Assembly: GCF_009914755.1 (NCBI RefSeq)
Contig: NC_060939.1
Source: the human T2T-CHM13v2.0 reference genome, Homo sapiens
Direction: 5' to 3' (one strand)
Length of the DNA: 64,000 nt
Below are positions 6,371-50,644 of the stretch, one piece after another (the first letter of the stretch is position 1; every line of letters begins with the position of its first letter). The translations under genes and the position numbers were made by a program. The notes beneath the pieces are model-generated. The model searched no databases. It worked only from the letters and a program-made list of their open reading frames with translations, and was not told where the DNA came from.

Positions 6371-7734
6371 GTTTTTTGTTTTCTTGTTTGTTTTAAACTT
6401 TTAAGTTCAGGGGTACATGTGCAGATTTGTTACATAGGTAAACTTGTGTCATGGGGATTTGTTGTGCAGATTATTTCATCACCCAGGTATTAAGCCTAGT
6501 ACCCATTAGTTATTTTTCCTGATCCTCTCCCTTCTTCCACCCTCCTCCCTCCAATAGGACCCAGTGTGTGTTGTTCCTCTCTATGTGTCCATGTGTTCTT
6601 ATCACTTAGCTCCCATTTATAAATGAGAACATGTGGTATTTTCTGTTCCTGCATTAGCTTGCTAAGGATAATGGCCTCCAGCTCCATTCATGTCCCTGCA
6701 AAATACATGGTCTCATTCCTTTTATGGCTGCATAGTATTCCATGGTGTATATCTACCACATTTTCTTTATCCAGTCTATTATTGATGGATATTTGGGTTG
6801 ATTCCATGTCTTTGCTACTGTGAATAGTGCTACAGTGAACATATGTGTGCATGTATCTTTGTAATAGAATGATTTATATTCCTTTGGGCGTATACCCAGT
6901 AGTGGGATTGCTGGGTCAAATGCTATTTCTGGTTCTAGATCTTTGAGGAATTGCCACACTGTCTTCCACAATGGTTGAACTATTTTACATTCCCACCAAC
7001 AGTGTAAAAGCATTCCTATTTCTCTGCAACCTCGCCAGCATCTGTTGTTTCTTCACTTTTAAATAATCACCATTCTGACTGGTGTGAGATGGTATCTCAT
7101 TGTGGTTTTGATTTGCATTTCTCTAATAATCAGTGATGTTGACCTTTTTTTCACATGATCATTGGCCGCATGTATGTCATCTTTTGAAAAGTATCCATTC
7201 ATGTCCTTTGCCCACTTTTTAATGTTTTTTTTTTCTCAGAAATTTGTTTAAGTTCCTTACAGATGCATCCTTTGTCGGTTACATAGTTTGCGAAAATTTT
7301 CTCCCATTCTGTAGGTTGTCTGTTTATTTTGTTGATAGTTTCTTTTGCTGTTCTGGAGCTCTTTAGTTTAATTAGATCCCATTTGTCAATTTTTGTTGAC
7401 AAAAATTTTGTTACAGTTGCTTTTGGCATCTTTGTCATGAAATCTGTGCCCATGCCTATGTCCTGAGTGGTATTGCCTGGGTATTCTTCTAGGGTTTTTA
7501 TAGTTTGGGGTTTTACATTTAAGTCTTTAATCCATCTTGAGTTAATGTTTGTGTGTGGTGTAAGGAAGGGGTCCAGTTTCAATCTTCTGCATATGGCTAA
7601 CCAGTTATCCCAGCATCATTTATTGAATAGGGAATCCTTTCCCTGTTGCCTTTTTTTGTCAGGTTTGTCAAAGATCAGAGAGTTGTAGGTGTGCAGTCTT
7701 ATTTCTGGGTTCTCTATTCTGTTCTGTTGGTCTA
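6371..7734 (-). mobile_element. Older L1PA (PA11-16-like) 3' UTR plus ORF2 end
   Basis: ttttaagttcaggggtacatgtgcag.tttgttacataggtaaac...cccaggtattaagcctagtacc. ORF2 C-terminal peptides appear in ORFs 6753-7013 and 7199-7582. Confidence 0.85.
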
Positions 7735-16226: not shown

Positions 16227-16743
16227 TGTGGCAGAAATTGTTAGTTCTCTGCCCAATATCTATTTCCTTGCCTATATTACTAACAACTGATTTTGCTCAG
16301 GATGGCGTTATATCATAAGGAATAAGATTCCTCATTTCTGAGCCTTCCTCAAAGCAAAATATTTCCACGTGTCCCAGTTCTGTCCAGTTAGTACCAAGCA
16401 GCAGTCTACTGGGGGTTAGTTCCAGGGAATATTTTGCTTTTCTAATAAAGGGGATAGTCACAGCTGGCATGTTCCTTTGCCCCTATTTCCCTTTCTCCTT
16501 TCTTCCTCCCTTAAACACAGATATGACATCTGGAGCTGCAGCAATCATCTTGCAACCATGGGATGACAAGCATGGACAAAAGGCAACACCCTGATGATTG
16601 TAGAGCAGAAAGAGAGAAAGGAACTGGGCCCCCAGTGGCTTCTCTGAGCAGCTGAACTAATGCTAGCAATTGACTACCTCTGCCATGTGAGAATAGACCC
16701 CAGTAGGGTTTTCTGTTATAGAATGTCAGATCTAACTGATTCA
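16227..16743 (+). mobile_element. Old MLT1 (H-K group) LTR inside an L2
   Basis: tgtggcagaaattgttagtt...gagctgcagcaatcatcttgcaaccatg...ctaactgattca. Confidence 0.7.
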
Positions 16744-17144
16744 GTGGTTCAGCACCATGGTCTCTTTCTTGCAAACATCCTTATCCATCTTCCCCTCCAT
16801 CATGCCTGGGAGACAAAACACAAGTCTGGTTAAACCTAACCAACTGCTCTGTGTTTGCATCTGAGTAGCTAAATATAGCTGCAGTACATCTCACAATGGT
16901 GCTTAGGGGTCTGACTTTAATTTTATGACCCCAAATTTCAGGTGGGCACTAAACTCAGCCGATAAGTGCTATCACTTTTCTGTAGCAAAATCACTTTCTT
17001 ATCCCTTGAGACGGCTATTTTAAACTTTCTCCTCTTTCTTCATACCTCCAGCACCCTTGTCTCCCCTTACTTTCAGCTGATGATCTCTCTTCATACTCGC
17101 TGAAAAAAATAAATGAAATCAGATGAGTGCCACCTCATTTTTTG

Positions 17145-18620: not shown

Positions 18621-19928
18621 CTAACATTTCTTTATAATGTGGCAGTATGTTGTGATGAAATGAGGCTTTGGATTCAGAGATGTAAATCAAATCCTGTCTC
18701 CTCAATTCCAGATTGTGTGACCTTGAGAAGTCACTTAACCAATTATCCTCACTGGCAAAGTAGTGACAATATCATATACTTCCTCTTGTTATTTTTAGGA
18801 CTCAAATCAGTTGACTGTGACCACACTCACCTGTTCTGGTGCTTGGCACAAAATGGGACCTGAATAAATGTTAGCTCTCTCCCCTAACCCTTCTCTTATT
18901 CTCCAATTCAACTCCTGTAGGAATGAGAAAACGGATTGGCCACATCTGAATAGAAGTAGGTAAGCCTTTAGGTTTTGTGAACCTGAGGCAGTTAGGCAGC
19001 AGCTGGGCTGTTTAGAAGCAGCATGGAGTTAAGTGATGCTGTGATTGTGGAGGGCTTCTACTTTGTTGATCCTTCTAGCCCTAACAGGGAGATAAGAGGG
19101 GAGGTAATAGAGCATAGAATGTTAGAGCTGAATTAATAATAAAATAATGAACAATTACATTTTAATTACCTCTTAATTTTAGTTGACATTTTATTAAGAA
19201 AATGTATTTTTGAATAGACGCAAAAATCCATATAGCCATCTCCCAGCTTTAGCAGTTAACATAATTTTTCCATTCTAATTTCATCTATTCCCTCTACTAT
19301 TTTTGGCAAAGTCTTTGAAAGCAAATCCCAGACATCATATCATTTCACTTTATCGTATATTATTTGGTAAAGATTTTTTAAAATAACCATTATCACCTGT
19401 AACTAGTGAGAATAGACCCCAGTAGCATTTTCTGTTATATAATCTCAAATCTCTTCTGATTCAATGGTTCAGCACCATAGTCTTTCTCTTGCAAACATCC
19501 TTGTCCATCTTTCCCTCCATCATGCCGAAAACTTAACAACAATTCACTAATATTGTATAATTCCCAGTCCATGCGCAATTTTCCCCAATTGTCTTTAAAT
19601 TGTCATTCTACTATTGTTTGCATGAAACAGGATGCAAACAAGGTCCACACATTATAATTGTATTTCATTTTACCTAAACAGTTTCCCTCGTTTAAAAAAT
19701 GTCATTTAAAGATTTCTTGAGTAATACCCTACAAGCACAGGCAAACAAAGCAAAAATGGACAAATGGGATCACATCAAGTTAAAAAGCTTCTGCACAGCA
19801 AAAAGAAACCATCAACAAAGAGACAACCCACAGAATGGGAGAAAATATTTGCAAACTACCCATCTGACAAGGGATTAATAACCAGAATATATTAGGAGCT
19901 CAAGCTACTCTAGGAAAAAAAAATTCTA

Positions 19929-34081: not shown

Positions 34082-34227
34082 TAGACACAGAGACCTGTGT
34101 CACATCTATGGTAGGTTTAGGGTACAGGGGTCCATGGGTAGAACTGTATTTCAATAGACAGAGGGAACTGTGTCACACCTATGATAGGTTTAGGGTACAG
34201 GGGTCTATGGGTAGAACTGTATTTCAG
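34082..34227 (+). repeat. 73-bp tandem duplication (2 copies)
   Basis: 34082-34154 versus 34155-34227, both tagaca...ctgtgtcaca.ctatg.taggtttagggtacaggggtc.atgggtagaactgtatttca. Confidence 0.9.
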
Positions 34228-34346
34228 TATAATAGGTTCCCATGTATTTTATTTAATCCATTTATAAAACATTATTCTGAGAAGGGGTCTGTAGGCTTCA
34301 CCAGATTGCCAAAGGGGTTCACGACGTCCCAAAAGTTAGAGCCGTG
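34197..34346 (+). mobile_element. Charlie4z-like hAT element
   Basis: aaaacattattctgagaaggggtctgtaggcttcaccagattgccaaaggggttcac. Confidence 0.75.
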
Positions 34347-46581: not shown

Positions 46582-47281
46582 TCACCTTTATTTTGAAAGA
46601 TTTTTCACTGGGTATAGAATTTGGGGTAGCCATGTTTTTTGTTTTTTGTTTTTTCCTTATTCAGTGCTTTAAAGTTCCATTGTTTCTGATGAGAAGTCAA
46701 CCATTATTCACATAATTGATCCTCTGTGGGTATAATGGATCTTTTTTTCTTTTCTGGCTGCTTTCAAGATTTTCTTGCCTTTGACTTCCAGGGGTTTGAT
46801 TATCATATGCTTGAATGTAGTTTTCTTTGTGTTTATTCTGCTTGGGGTTCATCGTATGAGTTTCTAGGATCTGTAAGCTTCTGTTTTTTTAACAAATTGA
46901 GCAAGATTTTGGCCATTGTTTCTTTAAATATTTTTCTCTATGATTCTCTCCCTCCTCTCCTTCTGGGGCTTCAATTACATGCAGATTATACCACCTGACT
47001 TTGTCCTACAGGTCACTGAAGAACCATTATGTAAAATTTTTTTTCTTGTTATTCGGATTAGGTAATAGCTATTGATTGCTCTTCAAGTTCCCTACCCTTT
47101 CTTCTGCCTACTCAAATTTGCTGTCAAACCTATTTGATTAATTTTTTATTTGAAATATTTTACTTTCAGTTTTAGAATTTCCATTTAGTCCTCTTTTATA
47201 TACATTTAATTTCTCTGCCAAGATTTTCCACGTGTTCATTTAGTATTATTATTTTTTAAGGTCCTTAAAATATGTATAACA

Positions 47282-49373
47282 CATATATCTAAACATCATC
47301 TTGTATGCTTTAAATATATGCAATTTTCATTTGTCAATTATGCCTTAATAAAGTTGGGGAAAAAGCTACCTTTGTCAATTGTTTATGTATAGCATTAATA
47401 ATACAGAGGTTAAAAGAATAGTACAATGGATAACAATATAACTATTATCTAAAATGAAAATACACTCACTTTTGAAGTATGTACATATAATTATTTATAA
47501 TCATATATGTATTGTTTGCTAAGTGTCTGCAAGTACATTATACTTACGATACTTTATCCTAAATAGTGCATCATGAGTCTCTTCAAAACAAGAAATATTC
47601 TGCATAACCAAAATGCCATTATAACACCTAAGAAAATAAACAATAACTTACTAATATAATCAAATAGCAACTTAATATTTAATATGTTTATATTTTATTT
47701 TTGATTTAAAATTATAATTTTCATTTGATGCTTTATTACAGAATGTCCTTTGATAATCTGGGTTTTATAAATTCTAAGTATGTGCCATAGACTTTTATCA
47801 TTTTTGGCATAAAATCTCTTCAAAATTTCTTTCCTCAAAATATTTAATATTAATTAGAGATTTAGAATATTTTAGAAATAGGAGGTTGTTTACATTAATC
47901 TTTTTTTTATTATTACACTTTAAGTTCTAGGGTACATGTGCACAACGTGCAGGTTTGTTGCATGTGTGTGCGTGTGCCATGTTGGTGTGCTGCACCCATT
48001 AACTCGTCATTTACATTGGGTGTATCTCCTAATGCTGTCCCTCCCCACTACCCCCACCCCACAACAGGCCCTGGTGTGTGATGTTCCCCTTCCTGTGTCC
48101 AAGTGTTCTCATTGTTCAATTCCCACCTGTGAGTGAGAACATGTGGTGTTTGGTTTTTTTGTCCTTGCGATAGTTTGCTCAGAATCATGATTTCCAGCTT
48201 CATCCATGTCCCTACAAAGGACATGAGCTCATCCTTTTTATGGATGCATAGTATTCCATGGTATATATGTGCCTCATTTTCTTAATCCAGTCTATCATTG
48301 ATGGACATTTGGGTTGGTTCCAAGTCTTTGCTATTGTGAATAGTGCCGCAATAAACATATGTGTGCATGTGTCTTTATAGCAACATGATTTATAATCCTT
48401 TGGGTATACACCCAGTAATGGGATGGCTGGGTCAAATGGTATTTCTAGTTCTGGATCCTTCAGGAGTCGCCACACTGTCTTCCACAATGGTTGAACTAGT
48501 TTGCTGTCCCACCAGCGGTGTAAGGGTGTTCCTATTTCTCCACATCCTCTCCAGCCCCTGTTGTTTCCTGACTTTTTAATGATCGTCATTCTAACTGGTG
48601 TGAAGTTTTCAATTAAAAAAATCCCCTGAAATCCACAGGGAAACATTTTTTATTAATTCTACAAGCAGCTTATAGAAAACAACAATTTTCAGATGAATAT
48701 ATAAACATATTTCAATATCAAATCAGCCTATTATTTTAATTAACCTAAATTGTTAATATGCACTGAGTTTCACTACAATATTTTAATGCTTTCTATATTT
48801 CAGTAAATTGATTTCAGATTTTAGTTTACCTTGCAAGCATTGTTTTTGAACATCGTTGTCAAAATGTGAAGATTTACTAAAGGTTTCTGTTAATTTTAAG
48901 GACTGATCAATATGAATATATTTACTTAAAGCATTGAAAATTTTACTTAAAATATAAACAGAAATTCTTAATCTAGAATATCCTATGTATTTTTCAGATT
49001 TCTATTTACATTTGTTAAATGGAGGCTCGCTGTAGGAAAGAGAAGTATAATTCAATTTATAATTTAGGTATATTGTATTAGCAGAGAGTATATTAGAAGT
49101 GGTTATATTAGAAGTGAGTACAAGTCATAAGGAAATTCAGAGACAAAATCAAGTAAATATGATTTCTTTTTTCAATTACAAGCTTTCTGAGTTTGTGAAT
49201 CACCATAGCTTAAGTGTTACCCATTATGCAAAATTATTGGTATTTCTTTTGGTCATCTATTTAAAAACCTAAAATATTTAGAAGCATGGACATGCAATGT
49301 CTGAATATTTTGATACTCCATGATTTGATGATACATTGCTGCATAATAAATCACATCAAATCTTAAAAAAAAA
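47282..49373 (+). mobile_element. L1-mediated composite retro-insertion (3' transduction or processed RNA copy)
   Basis: EN site cctt|aaaa at 47265-47270. TSD AAAATATGTATAACA 47267-47281 versus AAAAAATGTATAACA 49368-49382. AATAAA 49345-49350 then A9 at 49365-49373. The host L1M reads through when the insert is removed. Confidence 0.8.
47901..48603 (-). mobile_element. L1PA (PA4-6-like) 3' fragment with clustered A>G changes
   Basis: ttaagttctagggtacatgtgcacaacgtgcagg... ORF 48212-48646 is the ORF2 C-terminus. Confidence 0.93.
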
Positions 49374-50644
49374 TGTATAACAGCAGCTCTAGAGTCCTTA
49401 TCTGCTCATTCTGATATCAGAGTCATCTTAGGATCTGTTTTTATTGCCTACTTTTTCTTTTTACTGTGGACTACATCTTCCTATTTCTTTGTATGTACAA
49501 GAACTTTTATTGTTATGAACATTATAAATGATACGTTCTAGAGACTTGGAATTGTTATCTTGCTTCCTAAAGTGCTGATTCTTATTCAAGTAGGCAGTTA
49601 ATTTGGCTAGATTCAAACTCCAGACTCTATGCTTGCTGTGGTTGGTAGCAGCTGAAATCTCTGCTCAGCTTTTAAAAATCTTTAACAGTTCCATCCTGGC
49701 TGGGCTCCTTTAAAACCTCTTTCAGATACATGGAGCTCAGAGGTCAGCCAAGGATTTATATGTCATTTATTTGCAAATTTTGGAATCTCCTGTCCTTCTT
49801 GCAATTTCCTCATTTCTATTATTTCCCCCTATTTTCAGCTTTTATGACAGCACTAAACTCCATCCTCTGACTTTCAAGCCAGTAAGACTGTGTTTTTCTT
49901 CTTGAATTATAGCCACTCTGCCTCTCATAGTCTGAGAAGTACTTCCAGGCCAGAAATTACACACACATAAATCTCAACTGTTGAAGTTCCCTTCTTTCAA
50001 GATCAGCTACCCTCTAGCTTCTGCCTGCTTTCATTCTCAGTGCCTTCAAATAGTTGGAGTTTTGTGGGGGTTTTTTGTTTGTTTGTTTTTAGTTTTTTTT
50101 TACATTTTGTCCAGAGTTTGTTATTATTGTCTTCAGGAGAGAGAGTCTTTTATAAGCTGCTCCACCATTACCATAAAAGTAATACTTGCTATTATATTAC
50201 CTTTATCAAAATAGAAAATATTTGCTACTAATATGTTCATTTTAAGTGCTCCTTCCCGGAAAGTCTTAAGTGATTATTTTTTAAAACATTCTTTGCTCTT
50301 TTTCTTCTTCAGTTGAGATAATAAGACAGAATTAAATGAGTTTTGAATTGCATAATGCCTTCAGAATAGTATACAAATAATTACAATATATGTTATAAAT
50401 GTAACAAGATAAGTAAAAAGAAAAACTATAGAAAATCAGAGGAAGAAGAGATCAGAAGTGATTTCCTACAGGAGATTACGTTTTAGCTAGTTGTTAAAGG
50501 GTGACAAGAATTTAATAGCAGAGCCTAGAGGAGGAGAATATTCTAGAAGGAACATTGTAAGAAATGCAAAAAAGTGCTAGGTGAGGCTCAAGTCTTACTG
50601 ATAATATGTATAATTTATGACTTAAAATCAATACTTAAAAGTTC

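What the first reader, a model, noticed from the sequence alone, without database searches (positions are those of the whole stretch)
47901..48603. Strand-specific A>G hypermutation fixed in an L1PA fragment (ADAR- or Pol-eta-like signature in germline DNA)
Seen: against the L1PA4-6 consensus as I recall it, 17 + strand A>G changes at 47960, 47964, 47968, 47970, 47972, 48018, 48022, 48037, 48129, 48227, 48453, 48466, 48503, 48515, 48517, 48524 and 48525. Examples: tgttAcatAtgtAtAcAtgtg becomes tgttGcatGtgtGtGcGtgtg, and ccaAcAgtgtaaAAgt becomes ccaGcGgtgtaaGGgt. Only ~2 T>C changes are visible. They form two dense clusters, and the 5' neighbours are T x10, A x5, C x2, G x0. The same-orientation L1PA at 6371-7090 keeps A at homologous sites (ttctagatc, ccaacagtgtaaaag). 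Established: ADAR disfavours a 5' G, Pol eta makes A>G at WA, gBGC is strand-symmetric, and APOBEC3 gives G>A instead. Inference: a single event during retrotransposition. Options are (a) an A-to-I hyper-edited RNA reverse-transcribed into the genome, (b) deamination or G-misincorporation in the cDNA strand of the RNA:DNA intermediate, or (c) error-prone fill-in by Pol eta.
Basis: partly seen in the sequence, partly recalled or inferred. Interest (0 to 1): 0.88.

Follow-up and report, generated by a model that had tools for sequence, protein, structure and literature searches.

The report
RNA edits fossilised in a retrocopy
A 2.1-kb stretch in an IQCH intron is a copy of chromosome 1 sequence with the hallmarks of RNA-based insertion, and its 16 A-to-G changes, concentrated in an embedded L1 repeat, are likely ADAR RNA edits that reverse transcription froze into heritable DNA.

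Summary
In detail: 17 + strand A>G at the stated positions, against 2 T>C; 29 paralogues carry a mean of 2.5 A>G, at most 6. The L1 piece is a passenger in a 2.08-kb retrocopy (47282-49364) of a unique chr1 locus. The copy has a 15-nt target-site duplication, a TT/AAAA site, AATAAA and a short A tail. The chr1 source keeps A at 16 of the 17 sites, so the G's arose at or after this second copying, on the RNA's sense strand. They stop at the L1 edges: the flanks show 9 A>G against 10 G>A on 501 A. The 5' neighbour order is U>A>C>G. Best reading (0.85): ADAR edited the antisense L1 arm of a double-stranded RNA, and L1 reverse transcriptase then wrote the edits into the germline, roughly 20 million years ago (inferred). 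The partner arm was not found. The same outcome is reported for new pseudogene insertions in cultured cells (PMC11702581). Nine searches found no fixed germline L1 case.

The parts
47265..47270 (+). L1-endonuclease-type target site, TT/AAAA
   Evidence: Read directly; the consensus label is established knowledge
47267..47281 (+). Left target-site duplication (15 nt)
   Evidence: 14 of 15 identical to 49368-49382; 0 of 3000 random draws gave such a match
47282..49364 (+). Retrocopy of G000:C1 about 102,306,190-102,308,269 (- strand), 94.7% identical, 5'-truncated
   Evidence: each unique flank has one full-length match elsewhere, on chr1
47282..47900 (+). 5' non-L1PA flank of the retrocopy; internal control with no A>G excess
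   Evidence: A>G 2, G>A 5 on 224 A
47901..48604 (-). Antisense L1PA 3' fragment (about 700 nt), already present in the chr1 source
   Evidence: subfamily (about L1PA4-6) is recalled and not tested
47960..48037 (+). Edited patch 1: 8 of 20 A read G (47960, 47964, 47968, 47970, 47972, 48018, 48022, 48037)
48227..48227 (+). Lone chr15-specific A>G between the patches (may be background)
   Evidence: 1 of 88 A in 48038-48452
48453..48525 (+). Edited patch 2: 7 of 23 A read G (48453, 48466, 48503, 48515, 48517, 48524, 48525)
48605..49364 (+). 3' unique flank of the retrocopy; internal control
   Evidence: A>G 7, G>A 5 on 277 A, both branches pooled
49345..49350 (+). AATAAA polyadenylation signal, 14 nt before the end of homology; present in the chr1 source too
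49365..49373 (+). Run of 9 A, a poly(A) remnant merging with the A's of the duplication; absent from chr1
49368..49382 (+). Right target-site duplication

Best explanation
The L1 piece sits inside a 2.08-kb copy of a chr1 locus that bears the marks of L1-driven retrotransposition, and its 16 copy-specific A>G changes are likely ADAR A-to-I edits made on the RNA and fixed by reverse transcription. Step 1 (shown): an L1PA 3' fragment lay on chr1, antisense to the strand later copied. Step 2 (inferred from the AATAAA and A tail): a polyadenylated RNA ran through it. Step 3 (inferred): the antisense L1 arm paired with a sense L1 sequence, most likely the 3' end of an active L1 upstream in the same read-through RNA, which would make this an orphan 3' transduction; another inverted L1 in a host transcript, or L1 mRNA in trans, would also serve. 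Step 4 (inferred): ADAR deaminated about 13 of the arm's 157 adenosines, in two patches. Step 5 (hallmarks shown, enzyme inferred): ORF2p primed at TT/AAAA in the IQCH intron, read inosine as G, and stopped about 620 nt upstream of the arm, so the partner arm was not copied. Step 6 (inferred): this happened in the germline or early embryo about 20 million years ago, and the copy became fixed or common.
For: Direction and mechanism of copying: TSD 14/15, TT/AAAA, AATAAA and A tail on chr15 only, while chr1 continues past both ends. Only two copies of the unique flanks were found. Polarity: 16 of 30 chr15-branch changes in the L1 are A>G on the RNA sense strand, against 3 T>C (P = 4e-5). Confinement: A>G 21 of 159 A in the L1 against 9 of 501 A in the flanks, unpolarised, P = 6e-8; flanks are symmetric at A>G 9, G>A 10. 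Other change types run at a normal 2.0% on that branch, against 2.3% on chr1 and 2.1% in the flanks. Context: 5' U 9/47, A 5/32, C 2/55, G 0/23, and 3' G 4/29, C 5/35, U 6/61, A 1/32, in line with the 5'-G depletion and 3'-G enrichment stated in PMC4365171. No held L1 copy shares more than 3 of the 16 G's (87 copies). Eighteen Alus in the same intron region show no strand bias: A>G 38/1022, T>C 34/957. Precedent: 3 of 235 new pseudogene insertions carried ADAR-type clusters confined to the repeat or palindrome arm, one with the partner arm not copied (PMC11702581).
Against: No partner arm was seen. The 3.7 kb of chr1 held has no inverted match longer than about 26 nt, and local folds are ordinary (z -0.63 and -0.91; edited A are no more paired than others, P = 0.90). 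The absence of 5' G alone is not significant (P = 0.069), and the significant part, 5' U or A (P = 0.0014), is also the Pol eta motif. The chr1 branch itself has 4 A>G of 16 changes, so the share of A>G on the two branches does not differ significantly (16/30 against 4/16, P = 0.12). The middle 415 nt are almost unedited, which a plain 700-bp duplex does not explain. One A>T (48505) lies inside patch 2. The + strand is also the IQCH RNA strand, so polarity alone cannot date the changes, and no ape orthologue could be read.
Confidence: 0.85

Rival explanations
1. An error-prone polymerase (Pol eta type) laid down + strand patches, during second-strand synthesis of the retrocopy or in later repair, putting G opposite T at WA sites.
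For: 14 of 16 sites are WA (P = 0.0014); the clusters are tight; one A>T sits in patch 2; second-strand synthesis makes the + strand. The Pol eta signature is recalled.
Against: The flanks of the same insert hold 360 WA sites with 7 A>G (both branches pooled), against 14 of 79 in the L1 (P = 5e-7). Two patches 415 nt apart both fall inside the one part able to form dsRNA. Other changes at A (A>T 2, A>C 1) are near background (1.1 and 0.5).
Confidence: 0.06
2. The retrocopy inserted unedited; later, ADAR-edited IQCH pre-mRNA, or ADAR acting on an R-loop, templated the changes into the chr15 DNA.
For: The + strand is the IQCH sense strand (annotation given with the finding), so the polarity fits, and this route would also be confined to the repeat.
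Against: Within the window the only opposite-strand match to this L1 is 106 nt at 71%. Eighteen Alus, several in close inverted pairs, show no A>G excess on +. It needs an extra, unproven step when reverse transcription of this very RNA is already indicated. The rest of the IQCH gene was not examined.
Confidence: 0.04
3. Ordinary mutation, transcription-linked A>G bias, or gene conversion from another L1 built the G's up over time.
For: About 3 A>G are expected anyway; very many L1 copies exist, so outliers occur; the genome search scores only the best 40 candidates, so a donor could be missed.
Against: P(>=16) is 5e-8 at the flank or paralogue rate and 5e-6 at the chr1-branch rate. Flanks and Alus are symmetric. 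The best other matches to the two patches are 94% and 93%, with at most 3 shared G's. chr15 and chr1 share rare derived bases at 48050, 48129 and 48586, which argues against wholesale conversion.
Confidence: 0.03
4. The changes were made in the cDNA of an RNA:DNA intermediate (deamination, or reverse-transcriptase misincorporation), as in the first reader's option (b).
For: For the original L1 insertion the + strand would be the cDNA, which fits A>G.
Against: The chr1 copy of that insertion keeps A at 16 of 17 sites. For the second event the cDNA is the - strand, so adenosine deamination there would give + T>C. Misincorporation would spread over the whole 2.08 kb.
Confidence: 0.02

Closest known systems
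Retrocopied pseudogene insertions with ADAR-type substitutions in L1-induced cell clones (PMC11702581, bioRxiv 2024; main-text passage and Fig. S8 legend read)
   Same: Clustered A>G-type changes confined to the duplex-forming repeat of a retrotransposed RNA; their panel C has a single edited arm whose partner was not copied, the layout seen here.
   Different: Theirs are new somatic events in culture (3 of 235), in Alus or a palindrome of mRNAs. This one is in the reference genome, about 2% per branch old, in an L1PA arm, from a locus with no gene assigned here.
Orphan 3' transduction by L1 or SVA (examples tabulated in PMC4859970; passages read)
   Same: Unique flanking DNA moved with TSD, A tail and endonuclease site, with no sense L1PA body in the copy.
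   Different: The upstream source element is not shown here; the passages seen mention no editing.
ADAR hyper-edited RNA (PMC4365171; passages read)
   Same: One mismatch type, clustered, G depleted 5' of the site, located in a repeat.
   Different: Seen there in RNA reads, mostly Alu; here it is in genomic DNA.
A-to-G hypermutated avian retroviruses and HTLV-2/STLV-3 (reviewed in PMC12925331; passages read)
   Same: ADAR-type edits carried through reverse transcription, including in an inverted-repeat region.
   Different: Exogenous retroviruses, not L1-driven copying of host RNA into the germline.
APOBEC3 DNA editing of genomic retroelements (PMC2873906, PMC4866542; passages read)
   Same: Clustered single-type changes fixed at insertion and found by comparing related copies.
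   Different: G>A made on the cDNA by a DNA deaminase; here A>G on the RNA strand, with only 3 G>A on the branch.

Membership tests
L1-mediated (TPRT) retrocopy | Target-site duplication | tested here: met
   47267-47281 and 49368-49382, 14 of 15; 0 of 3000 random draws
L1-mediated (TPRT) retrocopy | Endonuclease site TT/AAAA | tested here: met
   47265-47270
L1-mediated (TPRT) retrocopy | Non-templated A tail after a polyadenylation signal | tested here: met
   AATAAA at 49345-49350, then 9 A absent from chr1; the tail is short and overlaps the duplication
L1-mediated (TPRT) retrocopy | Source locus that continues past both ends | tested here: met
   L002; two copies only
L1-mediated (TPRT) retrocopy | Empty site in an outgroup species | not testable with these tools
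   No primate genomes are held (no relatives)
ADAR hyper-edited sequence | A>G excess on the transcribed (sense) strand, single type | tested here: met
   16 A>G against 3 T>C on the chr15 branch
ADAR hyper-edited sequence | Clustering | tested here: met
   P = 6e-4 for short gaps, 1e-4 for median gap
ADAR hyper-edited sequence | G depleted 5' of the site, G favoured 3' | tested here: inconclusive
   Order is right (5' U 19%, A 16%, C 4%, G 0%), but 0 of 23 at 5' G has P = 0.069 and 3' G is 4 of 29
ADAR hyper-edited sequence | Confined to a repeat able to form dsRNA | tested here: met
   L1 against flanks, P = 6e-8
ADAR hyper-edited sequence | Complementary partner arm identified | tested here: inconclusive
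   None in the 3.7 kb held; chr1 sequence more than 880 nt upstream was not read
Orphan L1 3' transduction | No sense L1PA body in the copy | tested here: met
   The copy starts in non-L1PA sequence
Orphan L1 3' transduction | Same-strand source L1 upstream of the donor sequence | tested here: inconclusive
   Not within 880 nt; none of the 39 other best matches lies near it; further upstream not read
Pol eta mutation patch | A>G at WA | tested here: met
   14 of 16; motif recalled
Pol eta mutation patch | Indifferent to repeat boundaries | tested here: not met
   7 of 360 flank WA against 14 of 79
APOBEC3-edited retroelement | G>A clusters on the sense strand | tested here: not met
   3 G>A and 2 C>T on the chr15 branch
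L1PA subfamily variant | G alleles shared by other copies | tested here: not met
   At most 3 of 16 among 87 copies, 58 of them picked for likeness to the patches

The most novel reading that the evidence does not exclude
This is one member of an uncatalogued class: L1 read-through RNAs that run into an antisense L1, fold back on their own source element, are hyper-edited by ADAR and still retrotranspose as orphan transductions. Primate genomes would then hold a dated fossil editome, showing ADAR activity and specificity in ancient germ cells, a standing route from RNA edits to inherited DNA, and proof that ORF2p reads through inosine-rich L1 duplexes in vivo.
Probability: 0.35. Interest if true: 0.75.

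Novelty: new variant of a known kind. Interest (0 to 1): 0.6.

Why it matters
It is a clean natural experiment: the unedited source, the edited copy and 1.4 kb of unedited control flank all lie in one genome. If right, A-to-I edits made in a germline or early-embryo RNA about 20 million years ago became heritable DNA, extending a result so far seen here only in cultured cells (PMC11702581) to the germline and to L1 duplexes. It also gives a simple genome-wide test: compare retrocopies and transductions with their sources and count sense-strand A>G inside repeat arms. That would measure how often edited RNAs retrotranspose and what ADAR preferred in the past. No function is claimed for the insert, which lies outside the annotated IQCH exons.

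Tried and rejected
Subfamily allele or daughter copies: rejected; searches with each patch gave best matches of 94% and 93% and at most 3 shared G's. A target-site duplication around the L1 itself: none convincing; the duplication belongs to the larger insert. Sibling retrocopies: none found (the six other hits are short, 45-121 nt). Self-folding of the L1 arm as the ADAR substrate: not supported. A partner in the held chr1 sequence: none. A chr1 neighbour among the 40 best matches to the chr1 L1: none. Transcription-linked bias in IQCH: not seen in the flanks or in 18 Alus (Alus scored against a 57-copy pool without subfamily sorting). Joining of the two insertion-site flanks in another held sequence: no match. 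A recalled lead that PMC10191854 reports ADAR edits in transductions failed: 0 occurrences of ADAR, editing or A-to-I in the main text. PMC5199112 has 0 occurrences of editing or ADAR, and PMC4866542 has 0 of ADAR; their supplements were not searched. Ten short paralogue hits were left out of the 77-copy alignment and checked separately for shared G's.

Full report
Observation. Against the column majority of the 29 other copies the window has 17 A>G, at exactly those positions, and 14 other changes, of which 2 are T>C. The paralogues average 2.5 A>G (max 6) and 2.6 T>C. Poisson P is 1.7e-9 and the strand contrast has P = 3e-6. With 77 copies and a stricter rule the count is 15 against a max of 7. 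The pattern is real.

Strand problem. The + strand reads as the reverse complement of an L1 3' end, starting with a T run (orientation from established knowledge). Editing of the L1's own RNA would therefore show as + strand T>C. Either the cDNA was changed, or the RNA that mattered carried the L1 antisense.

The larger unit. The best paralogue, L002 on chr1, aligned through both flanks. The match spans window 47272-49367 at 94.7%. The chr15 copy is bounded by a 15-nt direct repeat (47267-47281 and 49368-49382, 14 of 15 identical; 0 of 3000 random draws), follows TT/AAAA, and ends with AATAAA (49345-49350), 14 more bases and 9 A. On chr1 the sequence runs on at both ends and has the AATAAA but no A run. 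Each unique flank has one full-length match in the genome, the chr1 locus. So chr1 is the source and chr15 is a 5'-truncated retrocopy of a polyadenylated RNA whose sense strand is the window's + strand, with the L1 arm antisense.

When the G's arose. chr1 keeps A at 16 of the 17 sites; 48129 is shared. Polarised with the family majority, the chr15 branch has 30 changes in the L1, 16 of them A>G and 3 T>C; the chr1 branch has 16 changes, 4 of them A>G. Non-A>G divergence on chr15 is 2.0%, the chr1 branch 2.3% and the flanks 2.1% per branch. The excess is thus about 12-13 A>G on top of a normal clock. By recalled primate divergences, 2% per branch is about 20 million years; this date is inference. 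Few rare derived bases are shared by both copies (48050, 48129, 48586), so the copy was probably made soon after the L1 landed on chr1, while its subfamily was active.

Where the G's are. Unpolarised, A>G is 21 of 159 A in the L1 and 9 of 501 A in the 1,376 nt of flank (P = 6e-8), and the flanks are symmetric at 9 A>G and 10 G>A. At WA sites the figures are 14 of 79 and 7 of 360. Eighteen Alus in the window show A>G 38/1022 and T>C 34/957 on + (P = 0.90). This removes regional transcription bias and any polymerase error spread over the insert. No copy among 87 shares more than 3 of the 16 G's, which argues against a subfamily allele or conversion, with the limit that each search scores only 40 candidates.

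Signature. The 5' neighbour rates are U 9/47, A 5/32, C 2/55 and G 0/23; the 3' rates are G 4/29, C 5/35, U 6/61 and A 1/32. Depletion of G upstream and enrichment downstream is the ADAR pattern stated in PMC4365171 (passages). Context alone is weak: the 5' G gap has P = 0.069, and 5' U or A (P = 0.0014) is also the recalled Pol eta motif. What discriminates is polarity plus confinement to the one segment that has many near-complementary partners; the chr1 arm is 95-96% identical to its best relatives.

Mechanism. An RNA ran through the chr1 locus on the - strand and was polyadenylated at the AATAAA (inferred). Its antisense L1 arm paired with a sense L1 (inferred). ADAR edited two patches, 8 of 20 and 7 of 23 A, leaving 87 of 88 A between them untouched (patches shown; enzyme inferred). 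ORF2p copied the RNA into the IQCH intron, reading inosine as G, and stopped about 620 nt 5' of the arm (hallmarks shown, enzyme inferred). The partner is the open point. It is not in the copy, nor in the 880 nt upstream or 740 nt downstream that were held, and local folding is ordinary. One hypothesis explains both why this sequence was mobilised and why it was double-stranded: an active L1PA upstream on the same strand, whose read-through RNA folded back, giving an orphan 3' transduction. My judgement within the ADAR reading is about 0.55 for that, 0.3 for another inverted L1 in a host transcript and 0.15 for pairing in trans. The chr1 sequence further upstream was not read, so this is untested.

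Results against. The share of A>G on the two branches is not significantly different (16/30 against 4/16, P = 0.12). Two of the chr1 A>G (48462, 48523) fall inside patch 2. One chr15 A>T lies in patch 2. The unedited middle is unexplained. The + strand is also the IQCH RNA strand, and no ape sequence was available to show that the G's came at once.

Comparison with what is known. PMC11702581 reports 3 of 235 new pseudogene insertions in L1-induced clones with clustered substitutions attributed to ADAR (main-text passage). Its Fig. S8 legend describes one case confined to a single Alu whose inverted partner was not retrocopied (supplement passage). That is the same layout. ADAR-type A>G in avian retroviruses, including an inverted-repeat region, is reviewed in PMC12925331 (passages). 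Fixed genomic editing of retroelements is described for APOBEC G>A (PMC2873906 and PMC4866542, passages). Orphan 3' transductions are tabulated in PMC4859970 (passages). Nine searches (listings seen, and only the papers named in this report opened) turned up no fixed germline retrocopy with ADAR edits in an L1 arm. The library lacks most subscription papers, and supplements other than those of PMC11702581 were not searched, so this is not proof of absence.

Verdict. The feature is real and is best read as an ADAR-edited RNA fixed as a germline retrocopy (0.85). It works like the cell-culture cases and meets every retrocopy test that could be run. For ADAR membership the partner arm and the neighbour test stay inconclusive. 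New variant of a known kind; interest 0.6.

Noticed in passing
window 49345-49373: The retrocopy brings a sense-strand AATAAA and A run into an IQCH intron, a possible premature polyadenylation site.
   Followed up: no
L002 positions matching window 48462 and 48523: Two of the four chr1-branch A>G changes fall inside edited patch 2, one next to 48524-48525. Probably chance; unexplained.
   Followed up: partly
window 48037-48070: Patch 1 ends just before the C-rich tract, the complement of the G-rich tract of the L1 3' UTR. A G-quadruplex in a sense partner could have broken the duplex there (speculation).
   Followed up: no
L002:2822-3711 (chr1 upstream of the 5' breakpoint): The 880 nt upstream match old repeats at 66-75% and read like an old same-strand L1M piece (label recalled); the retrocopy starts inside it, next to a 7-nt stretch resembling the duplication's end.
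   Followed up: partly
L050:57-759 and 1462-2161: Two near-complete L1PA 3' fragments in opposite orientation about 700 nt apart; the one scored shows no comparable excess (T>C 6, A>G at most 5). 7 of 87 held loci had opposite-strand L1 matches.
   Followed up: partly
window 47100-47266 and 49383-49600: The two sides of the insertion site read like one interrupted old L1 (recalled impression); no held sequence joined them.
   Followed up: partly
window 16687-16806 and 19406-19526; 34082-34229: A 121-nt direct repeat at 88% identity, 2.7 kb apart, and a tandem pair of about 74 nt at 91%.
   Followed up: no
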